A DNA stretch of 34,216 nucleotides from a virus (Duplodnaviria > Heunggongvirae > Uroviricota > Caudoviricetes). Of this stretch, positions 14,843 to 34,216 are shown in pieces. The translations under genes were made by a program, and so were the position numbers. Location of the stretch: IMG/VR virus record IMGVR_UViG_3300029181_000137. One strand, written 5' to 3'. Under the pieces are notes generated by a model. It saw only the letters and a program-made list of their open reading frames with translations, was not told where the DNA came from and ran no database searches. The first letter of the stretch is position 1. Each line of letters begins with the position of its first letter.

Positions 14843-14923
14843 TCAGGTGATACAGATTCCGGCCAGCGCCTTGCGCGCCGTTGGCTTGGGGCGACGCCCG
14901 GAACGCCCCGCCGTTCCAGCCAT
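14843..14923 (-). pseudogene. Small terminase (P27-family-like) remnant, 26 codons
   Basis: Hand translation MAGTAGRSGRRPKPTARKALAGICIT*; the GR(R/P)PKPT..K.L.G start matches my memory of P27-family small terminase N-termini, then premature stop. Confidence 0.55.
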
Positions 14924-17228: not shown

Positions 17229-18281
17229 TTATTTCCCCACCAGTTCACTTACCTCTTTCGCCGTCTGGTTAAACCGTTCTGACTCAAGCTCAACACCTAA
17301 CGCCCGACGCCCCAGCGCCATTGCTGCTTTTATTGTGGAACCGGATCCCATAAAGAAATCAGCAACCAGATCGCCTGGCCGACTACTGGCATTGATTATT
17401 TGTCGGAGCATATCCGCTGGTTTCTCACACGGATGTTTACCCGGGTAGAACTGAACGGGGTTATGCATCCAGACATCGGTATAAGGCACGGAGACTGATA
17501 CGGAGAAATAGCGCCGGAGAGATTTAAACTCATCCAGCAATTCAGAATATTTGCGATTCAGTGAATCATAAGATGCCACCAGCTGGTGGTGTGGTTGTTC
17601 CAGTTGTTGTTTCTGAAACTTCTCTGCCGCTATACGGGAAAAAAGTGCCTGCAACTTCCGGTAGTCAGCCTCATTCGGCAACTGCCACTGACTGGCACCA
17701 AACCAGTGGGAAACCATATTTTTCTTACCTGTGGCTTCGGCAATCTGTTTTGCCGTTATACCCAGTTCGGCACGAGCATCCCTGAAATACGATATCAGCG
17801 GTGCCATTATGTGCTGTTTGAGTTCCCTTTCTTTTGCCGCATAGCCGTCACTTTTGCCGCGATATGGCCCCTGGTAATGTTCAGCAAACAGAACGCGCTC
17901 TGTGGCAGGAAAATATGCGCGCAAACTTTCTTTATTACACCCATTCCATCGTCCGGACGGCTTCGCCCAGATGATATGGTTAAGCACATTGAAACGTTCA
18001 CGCATCATGATCTCGATATCAGATGCCAGGCGATGTCCACAGAACAGGTAAAGGCTTCCGGCAGGTTTCAACACCCGCCAGAACTGGGCCAGACAGTGGT
18101 CCAGCCACTTAAGGTAATCTTCGTCCCCTTTCCACTGATTGTCCCAGCCGTTGGGCTTCACTTTGAAGTACGGTGGATCGGTAACAATCAGATCAATGGA
18201 GTCATCAGGCAGGGACTGAATAAAATGCAGGCAATCAGCGTTGATTAAATCAACACTGTTTATTTTTACAGTATTTTTCAT
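17229..18281 (-). CDS. Orphan DNA methyltransferase, beta-class (N6-adenine or N4-cytosine)
   Basis: 350-aa ORF with DPPY catalytic motif near the N-terminus (LIVTDPPYF) and AdoMet motif FxGxG near the C-terminus (DFFMGSGST); no adjacent restriction gene. Confidence 0.85.
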   Translation of the reverse strand: MKNTVKINSVDLINADCLHFIQSLPDDSIDLIVTDPPYFKVKPNGWDNQWKGDEDYLKWLDHCLAQFWRVLKPAGSLYLFCGHRLASDIEIMMRERFNVLNHIIWAKPSGRWNGCNKESLRAYFPATERVLFAEHYQGPYRGKSDGYAAKERELKQHIMAPLISYFRDARAELGITAKQIAEATGKKNMVSHWFGASQWQLPNEADYRKLQALFSRIAAEKFQKQQLEQPHHQLVASYDSLNRKYSELLDEFKSLRRYFSVSVSVPYTDVWMHNPVQFYPGKHPCEKPADMLRQIINASSRPGDLVADFFMGSGSTIKAAMALGRRALGVELESERFNQTAKEVSELVGK

Positions 18282-18870: not shown

Positions 18871-20037
18871 ATGGAATTGACCAAAAAAATGAGCAAAGCA
18901 AGCATACGCCACGTAATCGTTCATGAGCTCTTAAAAGAATCTAATAAAGACTTCGATCACTCCAAACCATACAATCTTCGTGATACAGAACTAGATAAAA
19001 CAAATGATATAGTAAAAAAATTAGTAGACGGTGTTATTGATTTGTATGGTTCAAAAGGGAACTCAGCGCATTATGGTGTTTTTATTAAAAATAAAACAAA
19101 GCAAGGCCCTATACCAGAACTATTTCATAAATACTCTTTAGTTCAACAATCTGTTTCAAGTGATTTCATTGAATTATCGAAGGAAGTTATGAAACAAATG
19201 TATAAATCTGCTCAAGAGCAGATTTGGGCTTCTGGAGGATATGTTGTTTTTACTGATTATATTTTATCTGGTTTCCGTTATCTATTGGTTACAATGATCA
19301 AAAAAACTAATGGCGTAACTATTAGTGAAAATTTAGAGCCAGAGGAAATGATTCACTTAGAACTTGGTAATATTAACCAAGCAGCAAAAATAAATTTCAG
19401 ATATTATGAAGAATACCAAAAAGCAGATGACTTAAAAAAAACAGAGTTAAGTTATCTAAGCTTTATAAGCAAAACTACGGGACAGTCAGCGGCAGCATAT
19501 TTTATAGCAGCATTAGGATGTGACAAGGGGATTGCTTCAGCAGGTGCAACCCGTAAGTTACCAGATGAAATAAGGCGTTTCTTTAAGAAAGAACCTCTTT
19601 TAAAAAATCAAGCAGAGTCATTTAGAAATGATGTTATCAAATACTTAGAAAAGCAATTTGACAACGAGCACTCTGCAAGGCTTTCTGATATCGAATCGCT
19701 TGCTTCAGGCCATATGTCCTATTTAAAAGAGGAAGAAAAAACAGAACTTGTTGATAAATTAATGAAACACCTCAATAGTGAGGAAGTCAGAATCCCATCA
19801 GAGTTCGTAATCAATAAAAACTCCTTAGATAAAATCCGCAATGTGATATATAAAACTCCATCATTGAGCTTTCACTTCGACAAGGATTTACTCGGTGTCA
19901 CAACTGATGCTAAAATATATTATGATGACGAAAACCAAAGCCTAACATTTAATAATTTGCCTGTTGAAGCATTAACTAAGATAAGAAGAGCGTTGAAAGA
20001 AACTGATAACCCGAGTAACGAAGAAGATAAAGAATGA
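18871..20037 (+). CDS. NdpA/YejK-family (NA37) nucleoid-associated-like protein, cargo gene A
   Basis: 388-aa ORF; blocks alignable by eye to E. coli YejK (GGYVVFTDY..RYLLV...ISENLE; YLSFISKTTGQSAAAYFIAALG; FHFDKDLLG); about 30-35% GC by eye; opposite strand to phage genes. Confidence 0.8.
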   Translation: MELTKKMSKASIRHVIVHELLKESNKDFDHSKPYNLRDTELDKTNDIVKKLVDGVIDLYGSKGNSAHYGVFIKNKTKQGPIPELFHKYSLVQQSVSSDFIELSKEVMKQMYKSAQEQIWASGGYVVFTDYILSGFRYLLVTMIKKTNGVTISENLEPEEMIHLELGNINQAAKINFRYYEEYQKADDLKKTELSYLSFISKTTGQSAAAYFIAALGCDKGIASAGATRKLPDEIRRFFKKEPLLKNQAESFRNDVIKYLEKQFDNEHSARLSDIESLASGHMSYLKEEEKTELVDKLMKHLNSEEVRIPSEFVINKNSLDKIRNVIYKTPSLSFHFDKDLLGVTTDAKIYYDDENQSLTFNNLPVEALTKIRRALKETDNPSNEEDKE

Positions 20038-21260
20038 ATGATTTTAGTATAATAGTTAATCTGTATAGATTATCAAGCTATCCTCATTTTGACGGGGCTA
20101 AGTTTTCTGCGCGTATAGCTTATAATGCAGACGTAAAATCATTGTTCAAAAGAATTTTGAACCCTACTTTTCAAGCTGGTACAGCTGACGAAATAGAGGT
20201 GGATGGTCATTTAATTTATGATTATGAAGACTTTCCTGAAAAGGGAAATTTTCTTACATACTCGTTTAAAATTTCACAAGGAAGTGCGAATCGTTTTTAT
20301 AAAAATAAAAACGAGTTTGTAAAAATAAACACGCTCAAGAAAGGCATAATGCCAGAGTATTTCTATATTATAGAGGATGATTTCTATTCATTAGAAACAC
20401 CAAAACCTTCTTATATCCAAAAAATTGAGGACATTTGTGAGCTAATCAATGCTCTTTCCATGCTTGCTCATTTCCATGATATAAAAAAAGATAGCAAAGG
20501 TACATTTTATCGTTTAGTCTTTATTTTAAACTCAGAGTCTAAATCTTCTTCTGCTGTAATTGAAACAAATATTACAGAAGAAATTTTTAATGATAAAACA
20601 GTAAATACTCAGTTAGTTAAAACATTAGTAAGTAGTGAAGCTACTACTGATGCCCATCATATTGAAAAGATTAACACTTTCAGAAACACAGTTATTGAGT
20701 ATGTTAATAAAAATGGAAATTCCTTTGTCGAGTTAATTAACAAGTGGGATTTCATATGCGAACTTTATACGAACAACTTAGCTGCTTATATGTCGGCATT
20801 TTCTTTTCATAAAGCAAGGAAAGAAGTTGTTGATGCTGAACTCGATTACTCAGAAAAACTGTCAAAAATAATTTCAGAAATTTCTAACAAAGCTCTTGCC
20901 ATACCTATTTCACTAGCTGGTTCAATTGCTATTTTTAAATTAACAACAAAAGCTGATTGGATTATTGCTTTAATTGGATTGATTATCACAGCAATAATAA
21001 CATCTGCAATGATTGTGTCACAAAAAAAACAACTTGCTCGTATTTCACACTCTAAAGAAATACTTTTTGGACAATTAAGATATAGAATAAAGGATGACAC
21101 CAGCGATCTTAAAGAGAGCTTAGAAGAGGCTATTAAAAAATTAAATGACAATGAGGATTTTTGTCATAAGGTGCTTGACAGTTTATTATCACTAGCATGG
21201 ATGCCTACATTCATAGGCATCATCGGTATTTTATTTAAATTAATGCCAAATATTACTTGA
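20034..21260 (+). CDS. Membrane protein with three C-terminal TM helices, cargo gene B
   Basis: 408-aa ORF, ATGA start/stop overlap with gene A; hydrophobic segments LAIPISLAGSIAIFKL, WIIALIGLIITAIITSAMIVS, LLSLAWMPTFIGIIGILFKLM; AT-rich. Confidence 0.8.
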   Translation: MNDFSIIVNLYRLSSYPHFDGAKFSARIAYNADVKSLFKRILNPTFQAGTADEIEVDGHLIYDYEDFPEKGNFLTYSFKISQGSANRFYKNKNEFVKINTLKKGIMPEYFYIIEDDFYSLETPKPSYIQKIEDICELINALSMLAHFHDIKKDSKGTFYRLVFILNSESKSSSAVIETNITEEIFNDKTVNTQLVKTLVSSEATTDAHHIEKINTFRNTVIEYVNKNGNSFVELINKWDFICELYTNNLAAYMSAFSFHKARKEVVDAELDYSEKLSKIISEISNKALAIPISLAGSIAIFKLTTKADWIIALIGLIITAIITSAMIVSQKKQLARISHSKEILFGQLRYRIKDDTSDLKESLEEAIKKLNDNEDFCHKVLDSLLSLAWMPTFIGIIGILFKLMPNIT

Positions 21261-21612
21261 GCATGTACATAACCCCATTAATGAAACCTAACGCAGTCTG
21301 CAATTGCTTCCGGATTGTTCCATCTGAGCATCTGCGTCTCTTCGCAATAGAACGCAGTGAAATACCTATAACGAAGTGAGCAATGATCAGCTCATATTCG
21401 TCTGGTTTATACTTACACAGGCGGGCAACACAGCCGTCTATCATGATGCCTTCATCATCATCACACTGAAGGCGTATTTTTTTACCATGAGGTAAAAGCC
21501 CCTTAAAGCCTGCTGCTATCGGCTGCCAGTCCACACCACTGTTATCTGCTGCAGCCCACGCTCCCCAGCGGTCTAAAACTTCATACATATCACGCATCAA
21601 CTTTCTCCACAA
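21253..21612 (-). CDS. Q: Late antiterminator Q (QuuD / Phage_antitermQ type)
   Basis: 119 aa with LDRWGAWAA...IAAGFKGL...C..C...CSDG pattern matching my memory of DLP12 QuuD. Confidence 0.8.
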   Translation of the reverse strand: MWRKLMRDMYEVLDRWGAWAAADNSGVDWQPIAAGFKGLLPHGKKIRLQCDDDEGIMIDGCVARLCKYKPDEYELIIAHFVIGISLRSIAKRRRCSDGTIRKQLQTALGFINGVMYMLK

Positions 21613-23442: not shown

Positions 23443-23818
23443 CCGCCGTTTTCTCGTACTTACTGATAGTGATCTCGACCTTCCCTTCCGGGATAACCGG
23501 TCCCCACTCCACCAGCATTCTTTTCACCTGGCTGTCGTCTTCCCACACACCCGCGTGGGTCAGGGCGTCAAACAGCGCCTTGTTATAGTTGTCCAGATCG
23601 CGGATCCGGTTATCCGGAGGAAACAACACGATCTCCACTGAAGCAGGTGCCGACGTTGGTTTCGGCAGACGACGTAACTGCTCAATGATGGCGGCACACG
23701 CCGCGCCCTGGAATTTGCGCCCCGCCGCGCTTATCAGGCTCTTACCTGCAAACGCCCCTTTGTTGGGGTGTCGCCAGTACGTATTCACGCTGGGCGGAAA
23801 AGGCAGAATCAGCTTCAT
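23429..23818 (-). CDS. rusA: Holliday junction resolvase RusA
   Basis: 129 aa; PPSVNTYWRH...DLDNYNKALFDALTHAGVWEDDSQV matches RusA signature with catalytic Asp residues. Confidence 0.85.
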   Translation of the reverse strand: MKLILPFPPSVNTYWRHPNKGAFAGKSLISAAGRKFQGAACAAIIEQLRRLPKPTSAPASVEIVLFPPDNRIRDLDNYNKALFDALTHAGVWEDDSQVKRMLVEWGPVIPEGKVEITISKYEKTAGAAA

Positions 23819-24141
23819 ACTTTCAGGCCCCTCTCATGTAACCAGTAGGCTGCACGCAGCCTGGCGTTTTCCTCACCGGCAAGCAGTGAGCGGATAATCC
23901 CGACCGCCTCGCTGTCGTCATCCTTCACCGCGGTATGAAGAGTTATCCCCCGGGCCACGCCACGCTTTATCGTGATGACGCCTTTTTTCTCCAGTGCGCG
24001 AAGATGCTCTACCGCTGCATTCACTGAATGGTATCCCAGCATGGTTGCCACCTCCTGATTGGTTGGCGGAAAGCCACGCTCTTTCTGATAAGAAATCAGC
24101 ATATCCAGCACCTGCTGCTGGCATTGAGTTAACGTCGTCAT
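23815..24141 (-). CDS. LexA-type DNA-binding-domain protein lacking peptidase domain
   Basis: TQCQQQVLDMLISYQKERGFPPTNQEVATMLGYHSVNAAVEHLRALEKKGVI parallels LexA N-terminal winged helix; start set at MTTLTQ, where TAATG overlaps the upstream stop; ORF track start 24174. Confidence 0.6.
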   Translation of the reverse strand: MTTLTQCQQQVLDMLISYQKERGFPPTNQEVATMLGYHSVNAAVEHLRALEKKGVITIKRGVARGITLHTAVKDDDSEAVGIIRSLLAGEENARLRAAYWLHERGLKV

Positions 24142-24635
24142 TACGCCCCCACGTAATTCCCTGACAGATACCACTCATCACTCGATACAGCGCGCTTGCT
24201 GCTTTTCCGTAAACACTGCTCACGACGCGCCAGAAAATTGTTTCGTTCTGGCTGGGAGTGGCTTTCACGGAATGCCGCCATCCACACGGTTGCAGCACGA
24301 CGGTATAAGCCCCTTGACTCCAGTTCTTCAGCCTGGCGGGTCAGGCACAAAATCACCCGGGGATCGTTAGTGCCGACATAGAAATTGCGCACAGGTCTGG
24401 TTTCACGAACTGGTTGTGGTTCCGGCTCCTGCGCTCTCTCAGTCAGGCGCGGGAAATGTCTGCGTGTATCCCCTTCACAACGGTGAGCCACACGCCCACT
24501 CTGACGTAACTTGCTTGCTGACTGCAGAACGCGCTGCCGTGAGTAACCTGCAAAAGCATCCGCAATGTCTCCGGAAGTACACCCCGGATGGGCTTCAATG
24601 AATTTCTGAACGTCATTCAAAAGACTCATAATCAC
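24141..24635 (-). CDS. PerC-like (Pch-like) regulator domain protein
   Basis: 164-aa ORF; C-terminal AEELESRGLYRRAATVWMAAF...ARREQCL resembles the PerC family pattern as I remember it. Confidence 0.5.
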   Translation of the reverse strand: MIMSLLNDVQKFIEAHPGCTSGDIADAFAGYSRQRVLQSASKLRQSGRVAHRCEGDTRRHFPRLTERAQEPEPQPVRETRPVRNFYVGTNDPRVILCLTRQAEELESRGLYRRAATVWMAAFRESHSQPERNNFLARREQCLRKSSKRAVSSDEWYLSGNYVGA

Positions 24636-25573
24636 CCCCTGAATCCTGCCGGGATCTGGCTGTAGTCCACGTTGTCGTAACTGGCTTTAAAGTACGGGTC
24701 TTCGCGTTTTTCTGTGTACGTGCTGACGGACGGTGATAAGCGCAGGGAAAGTTCATCCCATTTTTCCCGCAATTTCGATGGGCTGAGGACGTTACGGCAC
24801 CAGAACGGGTCACGACTGACGCGGCTGTACATCTCGCAGATTTGTTTGTGAGTGCGACCATCCTGAACACACATCAGGCGAATTTCGTTTGCCCAGGCTG
24901 TCCAGTTTGGTTCTTTGGGACGAACCACCTCGCCGTCACATTCGGCGGCCTGCTCGTACAGGGCAATGATTTTTTTCCAGATCCACTGTGCGCAGGTCAA
25001 ATCATCCTGCGTTCCCCACTGGCGCTTTTTAGGGCTGAATACAACCGCATCAGGATGGCGAGTTAAAAAATCCTGTTCATCCTTCTTCATGTCCGGTTGC
25101 GAAGCGTCCGGACGAGAGGTTTTTTTATCTGACGGATCATGTTTTGATTTTACTGACGGATCCCCGCCAGATTCTGACGGGTGAAAACCCGCTTTTTTGC
25201 CAGATTTCGACGCATCATATTTTGACGGGTCAGATTTTAATGCGTCAGATTTTGACGGGTCAGAATCTGACAGTTGAGAAAATGCCGCGGCCTGAAGCTT
25301 CGCAACGTTAAGCTGATAAACATTCGACGCATTGCGGTTACCCTGGCGACGCGCCTTACGCGTTAACCAGCCTTCTGCTTCCAGCCGTGCGATAGCCGTC
25401 CTGACGGTACTCATCCCCGCGCCAATCTGGCGGGCAATGGTTTCAATTGATGGCCAGCACACACCTTCGTCATTACTGAAATCAGCCAGGCGGGCCATAA
25501 TTGCCACGCTGGATAATTTCATGCCTGACGCTGCGCAACCATCCCATACATAGCCGGTTAATTTAGTGCTCAT
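24632..25573 (-). CDS. Replication initiator, lambda O-like (HTH N-domain, low-complexity linker)
   Basis: 313-aa ORF; N-terminal HTH typical of phage replication proteins; DPSK-rich linker encoded by the iteron repeats; first large gene after the cro module. Confidence 0.75.
   Translation of the reverse strand: MSTKLTGYVWDGCAASGMKLSSVAIMARLADFSNDEGVCWPSIETIARQIGAGMSTVRTAIARLEAEGWLTRKARRQGNRNASNVYQLNVAKLQAAAFSQLSDSDPSKSDALKSDPSKYDASKSGKKAGFHPSESGGDPSVKSKHDPSDKKTSRPDASQPDMKKDEQDFLTRHPDAVVFSPKKRQWGTQDDLTCAQWIWKKIIALYEQAAECDGEVVRPKEPNWTAWANEIRLMCVQDGRTHKQICEMYSRVSRDPFWCRNVLSPSKLREKWDELSLRLSPSVSTYTEKREDPYFKASYDNVDYSQIPAGFRG
25121..25270. repeat. Iteron-like direct repeats inside the O-like gene (candidate ori)
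   Basis: At least five copies of (T)CTGACGG(G) at 25128, 25153, 25174, 25221, 25251, including two identical 14-mers TTTGACGGGTCAGA 30 bp apart, plus inverted copies. Confidence 0.55.
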
Positions 25574-25582
25574 GACCGACCT

Positions 25583-25921
25583 CTATTTCCCTGAATTTAC
25601 GACGAAACTGTTCGAGCGGGCTGAAGCACTCATGCTCATAGCCTTCACGGAGGTAGATAACCCGTTGTGTTTCCGGCTCCCAACGAATGACTCTGACGGG
25701 CACTCCGTAGTGATCTTTGAACCAGCGGTTAACTTGTCGCAAAGGACTGTCTCCTTCTGCCGGTTGAAATCCCCCACAGCCCACTCTGCAAAGCTGTGGG
25801 TTACAATTTCCCTGTCACCTGGTACATTCACTGCATAGCAATACTCCACCTTCGCTTTTCCACCCGGTACAGGAAGCGCAATCAGTTGCGAGCGACGGTA
25901 GTGTGTTGTTAAACTGTTCAT
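25583..25921 (-). CDS. Hypothetical protein between cII-position gene and O (frame uncertain)
   Basis: 112-aa ORF with ATGA coupling to the upstream gene and a stop 9 nt before the O start; a competing 73-aa ORF (25563..25784) overlaps in another frame. Confidence 0.35.
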
Positions 25922-26481
25922 GCGTTAGTTTCTCCACAGTCACGACACGCCACGGCGCCCGGAGCTGCACACTCGCGGGCGTCATTACTTTCTGAAATGC
26001 AAAAAATTTTGTAGACCAGTGCTGCATGCTCCTGCAGCTTCGAAATTGAGAGGTACAGCTCGTCGTTAATTGCTGTCTTCTCATGCGGTTCCACTACACC
26101 GTCTTCAATTGCTGAACGAATCTGTTTTGAATAACTGCCGATCTGTTCAATGACCTCCAGCAGGCGCTGGTTAATATCGGCGTTGTCCACATCCTCGACG
26201 TCAGGAAGAGACACAAAGACGCCATTTGCAGACTGCGCCACAGCATCAGCAATGAAGTGAGTGCCACCAGCACGCTGTAAAACCATTGCCCATCCCAGCG
26301 GGAAAATCTGATCGCCATCTGCACGAAGGCGGTTGAATAAAGCGTTTTCTGTTACATCGAGCCAGTCAGCCGCTTCAGCGTAACCACCCGGCAACGCCGC
26401 GATAGTTTTTCTGACAGCTTTCACGTACCACTCAGGCTGTTTTTCTATTTTCCAGTGATGCTTACCCACGATTAGCCTCAT
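25918..26481 (-). CDS. Hypothetical early protein in cII position
   Basis: 187-aa ORF immediately downstream of cro; no family recognised. Confidence 0.55.
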
Positions 26482-26512: not shown

Positions 26513-26713
26513 CTAATCTTTCGGATAGATATCCGGTCTTAAGTCAGATTTCGTAATTGCACCTGACGTGCATTGCTCAAGTTTTTTAGCCAGCACAAAA
26601 CTGGCTTTTTTATAGCCATTGAAAACCAGCCGTAAGTAGCCAGGTGTTGAGCCAACTTTTCCGGCCAACTCGCCCTGCTGTTCTTTGGTTAAAGAGTCCC
26701 AATACACTTTCAT
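26513..26713 (-). CDS. cro: Cro-like HTH regulator
   Basis: 66-aa product from internal Met (MKVYWDSLTKEQQGELAGKVGSTPGYLRLVFNG...) with GGAGG SD; divergent from cI; the longer ORF-track version would run through the operators and into cI. Confidence 0.7.
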   Translation of the reverse strand: MKVYWDSLTKEQQGELAGKVGSTPGYLRLVFNGYKKASFVLAKKLEQCTSGAITKSDLRPDIYPKD

Positions 26714-26803: not shown

Positions 26804-27478
26804 ATGAAAACAATCCATGACATCCGGCGGTCTAACGCCAGAAAACTGAGAGATGGTGTTGGCGGGAATTCTTCCTTTGCCACTATGATTGATCGCGAGC
26901 CAACCCAGACCAGCAGGTTTATGGGAGATGGTGCTACTAAAAATATCGGTGACAGCATGGCACGACACATCGAAAAATGTTTCGACCTGCCTGTCGGATG
27001 GCTCGATCAAGAACACCAGACAACGAACATCACAAAAAAACCTGATGTTTCAATCACTAATAAACAAATCACATTAGTCCCTGTCATATCATGGGTACAG
27101 GCCGGAGCATGGAAAGAAGTTGGATATTCTGAGGTTGATTTGAGCACAGCAGAAACGTATCCCTGCCCTGTCCCCTGTGGGGAAATGACTTATATCTTGC
27201 GGGTGATAGGTGATTCAATGATTGATGAGTACCGCCCGGGAGACATGATTTTTGTCGATCCTGAAGTACCTGCCTGCCACGGTGACGACGTTATTGCATT
27301 GATGCACGATACAGGTGAAACCACCTTCAAAAGGTTGATAGAAGATGGGACACAGCGTTATCTCAAAGCGTTAAACCCAAACTGGCCTGAGCCTTACATT
27401 AAGATCAACGGTAATTGCTCTATAATTGGTACAGTGATTTTCTCAGGAAAACCAAGAAGATACAAAATCAAAGCCTAA
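26804..27478 (+). CDS. cI: CI-type repressor (HTH plus S24 LexA-like autopeptidase domain)
   Basis: 224 aa; C-terminal domain with GDSM motif (VIGDSMIDEYRPGDMIFVD) and downstream Lys (TFKRL); divergent from cro. Confidence 0.9.
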   Translation: MKTIHDIRRSNARKLRDGVGGNSSFATMIDREPTQTSRFMGDGATKNIGDSMARHIEKCFDLPVGWLDQEHQTTNITKKPDVSITNKQITLVPVISWVQAGAWKEVGYSEVDLSTAETYPCPVPCGEMTYILRVIGDSMIDEYRPGDMIFVDPEVPACHGDDVIALMHDTGETTFKRLIEDGTQRYLKALNPNWPEPYIKINGNCSIIGTVIFSGKPRRYKIKA

Positions 27479-31368: not shown

Positions 31369-31718
31369 TGGAGCCATACAGCCTCACACTCGATGAGGCC
31401 TGTCATTTTCTCAAGATATCCAGACCGACTGCCATTAACTGGATACGCACAGGGCGTCTTCAGGCAACACGCAAAGATCCCACTAAGAATAAATCTCCTT
31501 ACCTCACAACACGACAAGCCTGCATTGCGGCGCTTCAGTCTCCGCTGCATACTGTCCAGGTGAGCGCGGGTGATGGCATAACAGAGGAAAGAAAATGTCA
31601 CTCTTCCGCAGAGGTGAAATATGGTACGCCAGTTTCACATTGCCGAACGGTAAAAGATTTAAACAGTCTCTTGGAACAAAGGACAAAAGGCAGGCGACAG
31701 AACTCCATGACAAGCTAA
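31368..31718 (+). CDS. xis: Excisionase (HTH_17/Xis family)
   Basis: 116-aa product from [33 protein letters not shown] with TAATG coupling and AAGAGG SD; overlaps the int start by about 120 nt. Confidence 0.65.
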
Positions 31719-32758
31719 AGGCTGAAGCATGGCGGGTCAGCAAACTTGGTGAAATACCTGATATAACGTTCGAGGAAGCGTGTGTCAGGTGGCTTGAAGA
31801 GAAAGCACATAAAAAATCACTGGACGATGACAAAAGCCGGATCGGATTCTGGCTTCAACATTTCGCAGGAATGCAACTAAGAGACATTACTGAATCAAAA
31901 ATTTATTCAGCAATGCAGAAAATGACGAACCGGCGTCATGAGGAAAACTGGAAACTCAGGGCAGAAGCATGCAGAAAAAAAGGGAAACCTGTTCCAGAAT
32001 ACACGCCAAAACCAGCGTCCGTTGCAACGAAGGCTACGCATCTTTCATTTATAAAGGCCCTACTAAGAGCCGCAGAGCGTGAATGGAAAATGCTGGATAA
32101 GGCACCAATTATTAAAGTGCCTCAACCAAAGAATAAACGGATCCGCTGGCTGGAGCCCCATGAAGCACAAAGGCTGATTGATGAATGTCCGGAGCCATTA
32201 AAGTCTGTTGTTGAATTTGCACTGGCAACAGGCTTAAGACGCTCGAACATCATCAACCTTGAATGGCAACAAATAGATATGCAGCGCCGGGTGGCATGGA
32301 TAAACCCGGAAGAGAGTAAATCAAACCGCGCAATTGGCGTTGCGCTGAATGATACTGCATGTCGCGTATTGAAAAAACAAATCGGGAATCATCACCGTTG
32401 GGTATTTGTGTACAAGGAAAGCTGTACCAAACCAGACGGAACGAAAGCGCCAACAGTAAGGAAGATGCGGTATGACGCAAACACAGCCTGGAAAGCGGCG
32501 CTGAGACGGGCTGGTATTGATGATTTCAGATTTCACGACTTGAGACACACCTGGGCAAGTTGGCTGGTTCAAGCCGGAGTCCCGTTGTCAGTTTTACAGG
32601 AAATGGGAGGCTGGGAGTCTATCGAAATGGTTCGTCGATATGCTCACCTTGCACCTAATCACCTTACCGAACACGCACGGCAAATAGACTCGATCCTGAA
32701 CCCATCGGTCCCAAATTTGTCCCAGTCAAAAAATAAGGAAGGTACTAATGATGTGTAA
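31595..32758 (+). CDS. int: Tyrosine integrase, P22-type
   Basis: 387 aa; C-terminal catalytic region with HDLRHTWAS and RRYAHLA (catalytic Tyr); ends 15 bp from the tRNA-Thr 3' end. Confidence 0.95.
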
Positions 32759-32772
32759 CTTATTGATTTTAA

Positions 32773-32848
32773 TGGTGCCGATAATAGGAGTCGAACCTAC
32801 GACCTTCGCATTACGAATGCGCTGCTCTACCAACTGAGCTATATCGGC
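32773..32848 (-). tRNA. thrW: tRNA-Thr (anticodon CGT), integration target
   Basis: Minus strand reads GCCGATATAGCTCAGTTGGTAGAGCAGCGCATTCGTAATGCGAAGGTCGTAGGTTCGACTCCTATTATCGGCACCA; anticodon loop ATTCGTAAT; encoded CCA end. Confidence 0.9.
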
Positions 32849-32962
32849 CCTGAAAGGACATGTTCACGAACGTGAATCACGGTGGACAAGGTTAAAACTA
32901 ACCGGGCGATGCGTCAATGGCCTTGTGAATCAAATGGCTACTTTTGCATCACCCGGTTTTAT

Positions 32963-34216
32963 TTACGCACGAATGGTGTAATCACCAATGCCGATCCACT
33001 TGTAAGTGGTCAGTGCTTCCAGCCCCATTGGGCCACGCGCGTGGAGTTTTTGTGTGCTTACCGCCACTTCCGCACCCAGACCAAACTGGCCGCCGTCGGT
33101 AAAACGCGTAGAGGCGTTAACGTAAACAGCGGACGAATCCACTTCGTTAACAAAACGCTGGGCGTTGCGCATATCGCGGGTCAGGATCGCATCGGAGTGT
33201 TGTGTGCCGTGTTCACGAATATGGGCGATGGCATCGTCAAGATCGCTGACGATTTTGACGTTCAAATCTAATGACAGAAACTCATCGTCATACTCTTCGG
33301 CTTTAACAGCAACCACCTTCGCAGGGCCTGCCTGCAACTGCGCCAGTGCAGCTGCATCTGCGTGTAATGTCACGCCGCTTTCCGCCATTTGTTTGCTTAA
33401 TGCGGGCAGGAAGCTATCGGCGATGTTTTTATTCACCAGCAACGTTTCAACCGTATTACATGTGCTCGGACGCTGAGTTTTCGCGTTGACGATCACTTTT
33501 AATGCTTCAGCGATCTCTACACTTTCATCAACGTAAATATGGCATACGCCTATACCACCTGTGATCACCGGGATTGTCGACTGTTCACGGCACAGTTTAT
33601 GCAAACCAGCGCCACCACGCGGGATCAGCATGTCGATGTATTTATCCATACGCAGCATTTCACTGACCAGCGCACGGTCAGGATTATCAATCGCCTGCAC
33701 GGCACCCGCCGGTAAGCCGCAGGATTTCAGGGCGTCCTGAATCACCGCCACCGTTGCAGCGTTAGTGCGACACGTTTCTTTGCCACCGCGCAGGATCACC
33801 GCATTACCGGTTTTCAGGCACAGCGAAGCGACATCAACCGTCACGTTCGGGCGCGCTTCATAAATCACGCCAATAACCCCCAGCGGTACGCGACGACGCT
33901 CAAGACGCAGGCCGCTGTCCAGTACGCCGCCATCGATTACCTGCCCCACCGGATCGGCGAGGTTGCACACCTGACGTACATCGTCGGCAATGCCTTTCAG
34001 CCGTGCGGGCGTCAGTGCCAGACGGTCAAGCATCGCTTCGCTAAGGCCATTGGCTCGCGCGTCAGCAACATCCTGGGCGTTAGCGTTGAGGATGATTTCG
34101 CTTTGTGCTTCCAGTTCATCGGCGATTTTTTCCAGCACGCGATTTTTTTCGCGGCTGGAGAGTTGCGCTAATTTATACGAGGCTTGCTTCGCGGCAATGC
34201 CCATTTGTTCCAGCAT
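32963..34216 (-). CDS. proA: Gamma-glutamyl phosphate reductase (host gene)
   Basis: 417-aa ORF whose start codon is the last 3 bases of the window; recognised as E. coli ProA ([36 protein letters not shown]...). Confidence 0.95.

What the first reader, a model, noticed from the sequence alone, without database searches (positions are those of the whole stretch)
24141..24635. PerC-like (Pch-like) regulator domain encoded in the early-right operon
The C-terminal segment resembles the PerC/Pch family, whose prophage-encoded members activate host virulence loci in pathogenic E. coli. If genuine, this prophage could influence host gene regulation.
Basis: partly seen in the sequence, partly recalled or inferred. 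Interest (0 to 1): 0.4.

Follow-up and report, generated by a model that had tools for sequence, protein, structure and literature searches.

The report
Common prophage gene yfdN (PerC-family)
The flagged stretch is yfdN, an ordinary prophage early gene already annotated in about half of all complete E. coli genomes. Its C-terminal half does belong to the PerC/Pch family, but nothing suggests it switches on host virulence genes the way Pch does.

Summary
Window 24141-24635 (minus strand) is one ORF of 164 aa (162 aa from the conserved ATG). Residues 100-154 match Pfam PerC (E 7.8e-10, 39.3 bits; cut-off 22.6).

It is yfdN, the CPS-53/KpLE1 gene of K-12, equivalent to SfV orf40, ST64B sb43 and mEp460_044. 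RefSeq already calls it 'PerC family transcriptional regulator'. It occurs in 2547 of 5426 complete E. coli genomes.

It sits in the repressor-controlled early-right operon with no recognisable promoter of its own, directly after a lambda-O-like replication initiator. That position is kept down to 26% identity. It is not a helicase-loader substitute, because one relative lies downstream of a lambda P gene.

The most likely role is a phage delayed-early DNA-binding regulator or anti-silencer that serves the phage. This role is inferred, not shown. A Pch-like effect on ler is unlikely but was not tested.

Verdict: already known, low interest.

The parts
24141..24635 (-). yfdN-type CDS. 164 aa from GTG 24635; likely true start ATG 24629, giving 162 aa; stop TAA 24141-24143.
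   Evidence: ORF list. PHROG 1324 matched full length, E 3.4e-78. RefSeq annotates 100% identical DNA as 'yfdN: PerC family transcriptional regulator'. M3-S4-L5 are invariant across homologues.
24450..24623 (-). N-terminal winged helix-turn-helix domain (residues 5-62; H1, H2, H3 and a beta-hairpin wing). It is basic, pI 9.8.
24363..24449 (-). Pro/Glu-rich, poorly conserved linker of variable length (about residues 63-91).
   Evidence: pLDDT below 50 for residues 65-86. Gaps and length variation in alignment A3.
24174..24362 (-). PerC-family core: three helices (residues 92-151) with the motif A..LE..GL.RRAAT.W..AF...ER...RR..CL.
   Evidence: Pfam PF06069 over residues 100-154, 39.3 bits. Helices 92-107, 111-124 and 128-151 at pLDDT 85-90. 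Invariant L105, R113, A114 and R138. Sub-threshold ANR_neg_reg hit, 22.5 bits against a cut-off of 32.
24144..24173 (-). Family-specific C-terminal motif W-Y-L-S-G-N-Y-V-G-A. It replaces the last third of the canonical PerC profile.
   Evidence: Conserved as W(Y/F)L(S/A)G.(Y/F)(V/S)G in most of the two-domain family, and absent from most of the single-domain PerC proteins. Low pLDDT.
24632..25573 (-). Upstream partner gene: a lambda-O-like replication initiator (HTH_36 N-domain, lambda-O-like C-domain). Its TGA stop lies 2 nt before the yfdN ATG and overlaps the GTG.
   Evidence: Pfam HTH_36 and PHROG 391 'replication initiation O-like'. Residues 131-277 are 35.6% identical to the lambda O C-terminus. 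A homologous initiator is immediately upstream of the yfdN-type gene in 56 of 58 loci whose upstream flank was available.
25124..25280 (.). Origin-like array of about 15-bp iterons (TCAGATTTTGACGGG) inside the initiator gene.
   Evidence: Direct-repeat families D1, D2 and D6 with 15-nt spacing. Local GC dip to 0.45-0.46.
23815..24141 (-). Downstream gene: a 108-aa LexA DNA-binding-domain-only protein. Its ATG overlaps the yfdN stop (TAATG).
   Evidence: Pfam LexA_DNA_bind, E 8.9e-19, with no S24 domain. PGAP coordinates. Sequence read directly.

Best explanation
The feature is yfdN, a conserved delayed-early gene of SfV/ST64B/mEp460/CPS-53-type lambdoid prophages.

Shown here:
- It encodes a basic two-domain protein. 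A winged helix-turn-helix is joined by a flexible linker to a three-helix PerC-family core.
- It is transcribed as part of the repressor-controlled early-right operon.
- It is tightly coupled to the stop codon of the lambda-O-like replication initiator.

Inferred:
- It is made only after induction or infection.
- It binds DNA through the winged helix.
- Its PerC core remodels repressive nucleoprotein complexes, such as H-NS/StpA/Hha, or engages another regulator. This is what Pch does at LEE1 and what the related ANR proteins do with AraC-type activators and H-NS.
- Its primary targets are phage DNA, meaning early/late transcription or the origin region, rather than host virulence loci.
For: Identity:
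- 100% identical DNA is annotated yfdN in RefSeq, and the gene is in 2547 of 5426 complete genomes.
- It is 95-98% identical to the SfV, SfII, SfIV and mEp460 proteins and 67% to ST64B sb43.

Architecture:
- Both domains are basic.
- 26 diverse members share the architecture, and 25 of 26 hit PerC.

Operon context:
- There is no consensus promoter in front of the gene.
- The module cI, cro, cII, initiator, YfdN-like, Dam, LexA-DBD, RusA, KilA-N, DUF968, Q is kept in a relative with only 26% identity. It is also kept in others.

Mechanistic analogy:
- Pch binds many chromosomal loci and lowers H-NS occupancy. Its activation depends entirely on H-NS/StpA/Hha (PMC4764244).
- There is a sub-threshold ANR similarity.

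Selection: dN/dS is 0.15-0.42.
Against: - No experiment addresses YfdN function. Only screen-level mentions exist: a glycogen phenotype on overexpression (PMC2853380), and use as a deleted background gene (PMC5931665).
- DNA binding by the winged helix is not shown. Some winged helices, such as the MotA N-terminal domain and RPA32C, bind proteins instead.
- Pch did not co-precipitate with H-NS (PMC4764244), so the molecular contact made by a PerC core is itself unknown.
- The last third of the PerC profile is missing.
- The near-constant position behind the initiator could point to a replication role instead.
Confidence: 0.5

Rival explanations
1. Pch-like host virulence regulator. The prophage protein would activate ler/LEE or other H-NS-silenced host loci in the lysogen.
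For: - The gene is a genuine PerC-family member.
- PerC and PchABC activate LEE1 (PMC4764244, PMC5931665).
- PchE overexpression alters csgD and flagellar genes (PMC6265319, PMC7369912).
- Stx2c phages carry this gene.
Against: - Its architecture differs from Pch and it lacks profile positions 60-90.
- It is present in K-12 and in 47% of complete E. coli genomes.
- PchD gave no ler activation and PchE less than 2-fold (PMC5931665). A PICI-encoded PerC-family protein represses LEE1 (PMC11773190).
- It has no promoter of its own and lies in a repressed operon.
Confidence: 0.1
2. Replication-module accessory. YfdN would work with the O-like initiator, for example as a helicase-recruiting adaptor in the slot where lambda has P, or by clearing nucleoid proteins from the origin.
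For: - An initiator homologue lies directly upstream in 56 of 58 loci whose upstream flank was available, and a 57th (L068) has a different Phg_2220_C initiator in that position; the start and stop codons are coupled.
- This pairing is kept in relatives of 26-31% identity.
- No helicase-loader or helicase family was matched among the early-operon genes scanned with Pfam in these modules.
- The window's initiator has a lambda-O-like C-domain, which in lambda is the P-binding domain (the P-binding role is established knowledge).
- Lambda-type phages have P in this slot.
Against: - One two-domain relative lies downstream of a bona fide lambda P gene, so it coexists with P rather than replacing it.
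- Other relatives follow RecT, or lie near Rha/AlpA genes, with no initiator adjacent.
- phiNP has a related initiator with no YfdN. YeP1 has an unrelated 156-aa gene in the slot.
- Nearly identical YfdN proteins are paired with initiators only 30% identical to each other.
- Many of the 58 loci are near-duplicates.
Confidence: 0.12
3. Ren-like function. The N-terminal domain would be a homologue of lambda Ren, and the protein would protect the phage against an exclusion (abortive-infection) system.
For: - PHROG 142 'Ren-like exclusion protein' is hit by 5 of 26 members (best E 2.4e-5; the window protein scores 0.0095).
- hhalign against a lambda-type Ren covers 64 columns at E 9e-4.
- One relative occupies the ren position directly after P.
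Against: - The hhalign probability is only 22.7%.
- The similarity may reflect only the shared winged-helix fold.
- Ren has no PerC domain.
Confidence: 0.08

Closest known systems
YfdN of E. coli K-12 (CPS-53/KpLE1 prophage; P76510), equivalent to SfV orf40, ST64B Sb43 and mEp460_044
   Same: - Same gene. The DNA is 100% identical to a RefSeq yfdN (strain L725) and about 96% identical to the copy in a K-12-derived laboratory strain (NEB10-beta).
- The proteins are 95-98% identical to the SfV, SfII, SfIV and mEp460 copies and 67% to ST64B sb43.
- Same length.
- Same position after the O-like gene.
   Different: Here the Dam methylase gene that usually follows (yfdM in K-12, dam in SfV) is absent. 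The LexA-DBD gene abuts yfdN directly.
PerC (EPEC pEAF plasmid) and PchA/B/C (EHEC prophages), Pfam PF06069
   Same: - They share a three-helix core with the motif LE..GL.RRAA..W...ER...RR..C.
- They are encoded on mobile elements.
- They are basic.
   Different: - PerC and Pch are single-domain proteins of about 60-105 aa.
- They have a further C-terminal segment (profile positions 60-90, '...MGI...').
- YfdN lacks that segment, adds an N-terminal winged helix plus linker, and ends in WYLSGNYVG.
- Pch is known to relieve H-NS silencing at LEE1 (PMC4764244). No such activity is known for YfdN.
ANR family (AraC negative regulators such as Aar; NCBIfam NF033650)
   Same: A small helical regulatory module. 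Residues 98-144 align to positions 5-51 of the 54-position model. Authors studying a PICI-encoded PerC-family protein noticed the same similarity (PMC11773190).
   Different: The score of 22.5 bits is below the 32-bit cut-off. ANR proteins are single-domain and act by binding other regulators.
Lambda Ren (PHROG 142)
   Same: A small gene placed just after the replication genes, with weak sequence similarity to the YfdN N-domain.
   Different: The similarity is weak, and Ren has no PerC domain.

Membership tests
PerC family (Pfam PF06069) | Profile match above the curated gathering score | tested here: met
   39.3 bits against 22.6, E 7.8e-10, residues 100-154. 25 of 26 relatives match at E <= 0.01.
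PerC family (Pfam PF06069) | Coverage of the whole 90-position PerC profile, and a small single-domain architecture as in PerC/Pch | tested here: not met
   Only profile positions 5-59 are matched. The protein is 162-164 aa with an added winged helix and linker. Canonical members are 60-105 aa.
PerC family (Pfam PF06069) | Conserved core motif LE..GL.RRAA..W ... RR..C | tested here: met
   The sequence ELESRGLYRRAATVWMAAF...ERNNFLARREQCL is present. L105, R113, A114 and R138 are invariant.
Pch group 1 / PerC (functional class) | Activates the LEE1 (ler) promoter by relieving H-NS silencing | not testable with these tools
   A reporter assay is needed. In the literature only PerC and PchA/B/C do this. 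PchD and PchE do not, or barely do (PMC5931665, PMC4764244).
YfdN / PHROG 1324 (winged helix + PerC two-domain family) | Full-length match and near-identity to annotated yfdN | tested here: met
   PHROG 1324, E 3.4e-78, residues 2-163 against profile positions 14-166 of 172. All 26 diverse members hit it. The DNA is 100% identical to RefSeq yfdN.
YfdN / PHROG 1324 (winged helix + PerC two-domain family) | Position immediately after an HTH_36/DnaD-like initiator in the early-right operon | tested here: met
   True for the window and for 56 of 58 loci whose upstream flank was available. Exceptions exist among distant members.
ANR family (NCBIfam NF033650) | Score above the curated cut-off | tested here: not met
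   22.5 bits against 32.
Lambda P-type helicase loader | Sequence membership (Pfam PF06992), or exclusive occupancy of the P slot | tested here: not met
   There is no P, DnaC or helicase match. A relative coexists with a P gene.
Ren-like exclusion proteins (PHROG 142) | Significant profile match of the N-domain | tested here: inconclusive
   E 0.0095 for the window protein. 5 of 26 members match, best E 2.4e-5. hhalign gives E 9e-4 but only 22.7% probability.
Winged helix-turn-helix DNA-binding fold (MarR/ArsR-like) | Three-helix bundle plus beta-hairpin wing that superposes on solved winged helices | tested here: met

The most novel reading that the evidence does not exclude
The winged-helix + PerC proteins may be a dedicated accessory of SfV-type replication modules. 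One possibility is that they clear H-NS-type nucleoprotein from the AT-rich iteron origin. Another is that they couple replication to downstream transcription. Under this reading, the stand-alone PerC/Pch/ANR virulence regulators would be domesticated offshoots of this phage early-gene domain. The near-invariant start/stop coupling to unrelated initiator types would then reflect a functional partnership.
Probability: 0.12. Interest if true: 0.5.

Novelty: already known. Interest (0 to 1): 0.12.

Why it matters
As found, it matters little. It is a correctly recognisable, already annotated prophage gene present in about half of complete E. coli genomes, and nothing makes this copy special.

The useful caution is that 'PerC family' should not be read as 'virulence activator' for this two-domain subfamily. 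Its biochemical role has never been tested.

The family's conserved coupling to phage replication initiators would be a cheap question to settle in SfV, mEp460 or ST64B.

Tried and rejected
- PDB sequence search found no solved relative.
- PADLOC gave no defence-system match for YfdN.
- Rfam and tRNA scans found nothing at the locus. The only hit in the window is tRNA-Thr at 32773-32848.
- The helicase-loader-replacement idea was rejected because a two-domain relative lies after a lambda P gene, and because related initiators occur without YfdN or with an unrelated gene in the slot.
- PchE is not a YfdN-type gene. Its operon is described as starting about 675 nt upstream with two short ORFs, which does not fit an initiator-YfdN pair (PMC7369912).
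- The search for related loci with family alignments failed for lack of a conserved stretch. I used single queries, a degenerate DNA pattern and exact-protein look-ups instead.
- Two viral-contig scans with divergent members found nothing.
- Porter et al. 2005 (PMC543544) is not held.
- I could not retrieve a bona fide PchA or PerC sequence for a direct pairwise identity. Membership therefore rests on the Pfam profile.
- I did not attempt a fused initiator-YfdN AlphaFold run.

Full report
**Observation**

Window 24141-24635 holds a single minus-strand ORF of 164 aa starting at GTG.
- Homologues all begin at the ATG two codons downstream (24629), which is preceded by AGGGGG. This gives a 162-aa protein starting MSLLNDV.
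- Pfam places a PerC domain (PF06069) on residues 100-154: E 7.8e-10, 39.3 bits against a gathering score of 22.6, profile positions 5-59 of 90.
- PHROG 1324, 'transcriptional activator', matches the full length at 3.4e-78.
- dN/dS against orthologues of 49-98% identity is 0.15-0.42.

**Identity**

The DNA is 100% identical to the gene RefSeq annotates as 'yfdN: PerC family transcriptional regulator' in E. coli L725.
- A copy at 90% identity or more, covering at least 80% of the gene, is found in 2547 of 5426 complete E. coli genomes. These include the K-12-derived laboratory strain NEB10-beta.
- In sequenced phages it is SfV orf40, mEp460_044 and ST64B sb43. It is also present in SfII, SfIV and Stx2c-converting phages.
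- The literature already calls yfdN the only PerC homologue of K-12 (PMC5931665).

**Surroundings**

The window is an SfV/e14-like prophage inserted at tRNA-Thr(CGU) next to proA. On the minus strand the early-right operon reads as follows:
- cro-like (about 26513-26713)
- cII-like (25918-26481)
- DUF4222
- lambda-O-like initiator (24632-25573)
- yfdN
- LexA-DBD-only protein (23815-24141)
- RusA, KilA-N, DUF968
- Q (21253-21612)

The cI-like S24 repressor is divergent at 26804-27478. The initiator carries about 15-bp iterons at 25124-25280, as lambda O does. Its residues 131-277 are 35.6% identical to the lambda O C-terminal domain. No consensus promoter precedes yfdN. Its start is coupled to the initiator's stop, and its own stop overlaps the next start as TAATG.

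**Anatomy of the protein**

An AlphaFold2 model (mean pLDDT 73.7) shows three parts:
- a winged helix at residues 5-62,
- a disordered linker at 65-86,
- three helices at 92-151.

A profile search of 1.8 billion representatives returned two groups:
- a coherent set of two-domain relatives, 140-165 aa, down to 24% identity;
- the short single-domain PerC proteins, 60-105 aa.

Both groups share the core A..LE..GL.RRAA..W...ER...RR..C. The canonical proteins continue into a '...MGI...' segment (profile positions 60-90). The YfdN type lacks this segment and ends in W(Y/F)L(S/A)G.(Y/F)VG instead. A sub-threshold match to the ANR family (22.5 bits against 32) fits a common small helical regulatory module.

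**Conserved context**

- In 56 of 58 fetched loci whose upstream flank was available, a homologue of the window's initiator lies immediately upstream. Its stop overlaps the YfdN-type start by 4 nt.
- The 57th locus has a different Phg_2220_C initiator in the same position.
- Many of these loci are near-duplicates. Even so, the arrangement holds across subfamilies of 26-31% identity.
- It also holds across initiators with unrelated domains.
- What follows varies: Dam methylases of three unrelated families, or directly the LexA-DBD gene and then RusA.

Exceptions argue against an obligatory partnership:
- One relative follows a lambda P gene.
- One follows RecT.
- Two lie near Rha or AlpA/DUF3950 genes.
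- phiNP has a related initiator with no YfdN. YeP1 has an unrelated 156-aa gene in the slot.

**Mechanism**

Shown here: the architecture, the operon position and the purifying selection.

Inferred: the protein is made only after derepression, binds DNA through the winged helix, and uses the PerC core to loosen repressive nucleoprotein or to engage another regulator.
- This draws on what is known for Pch. Pch binds many loci, and its activation of LEE1 depends wholly on H-NS/StpA/Hha (PMC4764244).
- It also draws on the weak ANR similarity.
- I put this at about 0.5.

Rivals:
- A Pch-like action on host virulence genes, 0.1. Only group-1 Pch and PerC activate ler (PMC5931665). A PICI-encoded PerC-family protein even represses LEE1 (PMC11773190).
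- A replication accessory role, 0.12. It is favoured by synteny and weakened by coexistence with P.
- A Ren-like anti-exclusion role, 0.08. The support is a weak PHROG 142 match and a weak hhalign match.

**Verdict**

The gene is already known and very common, so interest is low. The one point worth a bench test is why this two-domain PerC protein is so regularly coupled to phage replication initiators.

Noticed in passing
window 14855-14857 (compared with L001 11375-13922): Relative to the nearly identical prophage of E. coli L725, about 2.5 kb is missing. The deletion removes the 5' end of the portal gene, ymfR, the large terminase subunit and most of the small one. The prophage in the window is probably unable to package DNA (with the annotation).
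   Followed up: partly
window 25124-25280: An array of at least seven iterons of about 15 bp (TCAGATTTTGACGGG) lies inside the O-like initiator gene, in the segment that encodes its repetitive Ser/Asp/Lys linker. This is a lambda-style origin within the initiator gene.
   Followed up: partly
window 24632-24700 (initiator C-terminus); also L002, L054, L066, L068, L074, L077, L079: Initiators with three unrelated central or C-terminal domains all end in the same tail..(F)K.SY.NVDYS.IP.GFRG*. phiNP's rep has this tail too, although it has no YfdN gene downstream. Part of the tail (FRG-stop) doubles as the Shine-Dalgarno site for the next gene. The rest is unexplained and may be a host-factor docking motif.
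   Followed up: partly
window 18871-21260 (+ strand): Two genes lie on the opposite strand between the Q antiterminator and the lysis genes. One is an NA37/YejK-like nucleoid-associated protein (388 aa). The other is an overlapping 408-aa ORF with no Pfam or PADLOC match. The pair is rare, covering at least 80% in only 30 of 5426 complete E. coli genomes. It is a possible moron or defence cargo.
   Followed up: partly
window 17229-18281 (-): A 350-aa N6/N4 DNA methyltransferase (PADLOC Type II MTase model, 2.3e-151) sits in the region that differs from the L725 prophage. The Dam gene usually found right after yfdN is absent here.
   Followed up: no
window 23815-24141 (-): A 108-aa protein consists only of a LexA-type DNA-binding domain with no S24 peptidase domain. 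It is conserved next to RusA throughout these modules.
   Followed up: no
window 31595-34216: The prophage end: integrase (31595-32758, +), tRNA-Thr(CGU) at 32773-32848 (-) as the attachment site, then host proA (32963-34216, -).
   Followed up: yes
L085 416-1603; L055 2897-4498; L081 3325-4480; L084 2470-3974: Distant two-domain (winged helix + PerC) relatives sit in other early-gene contexts: after a lambda P gene, after RecT, and near AlpA/DUF3950 or Rha genes.
   Followed up: partly
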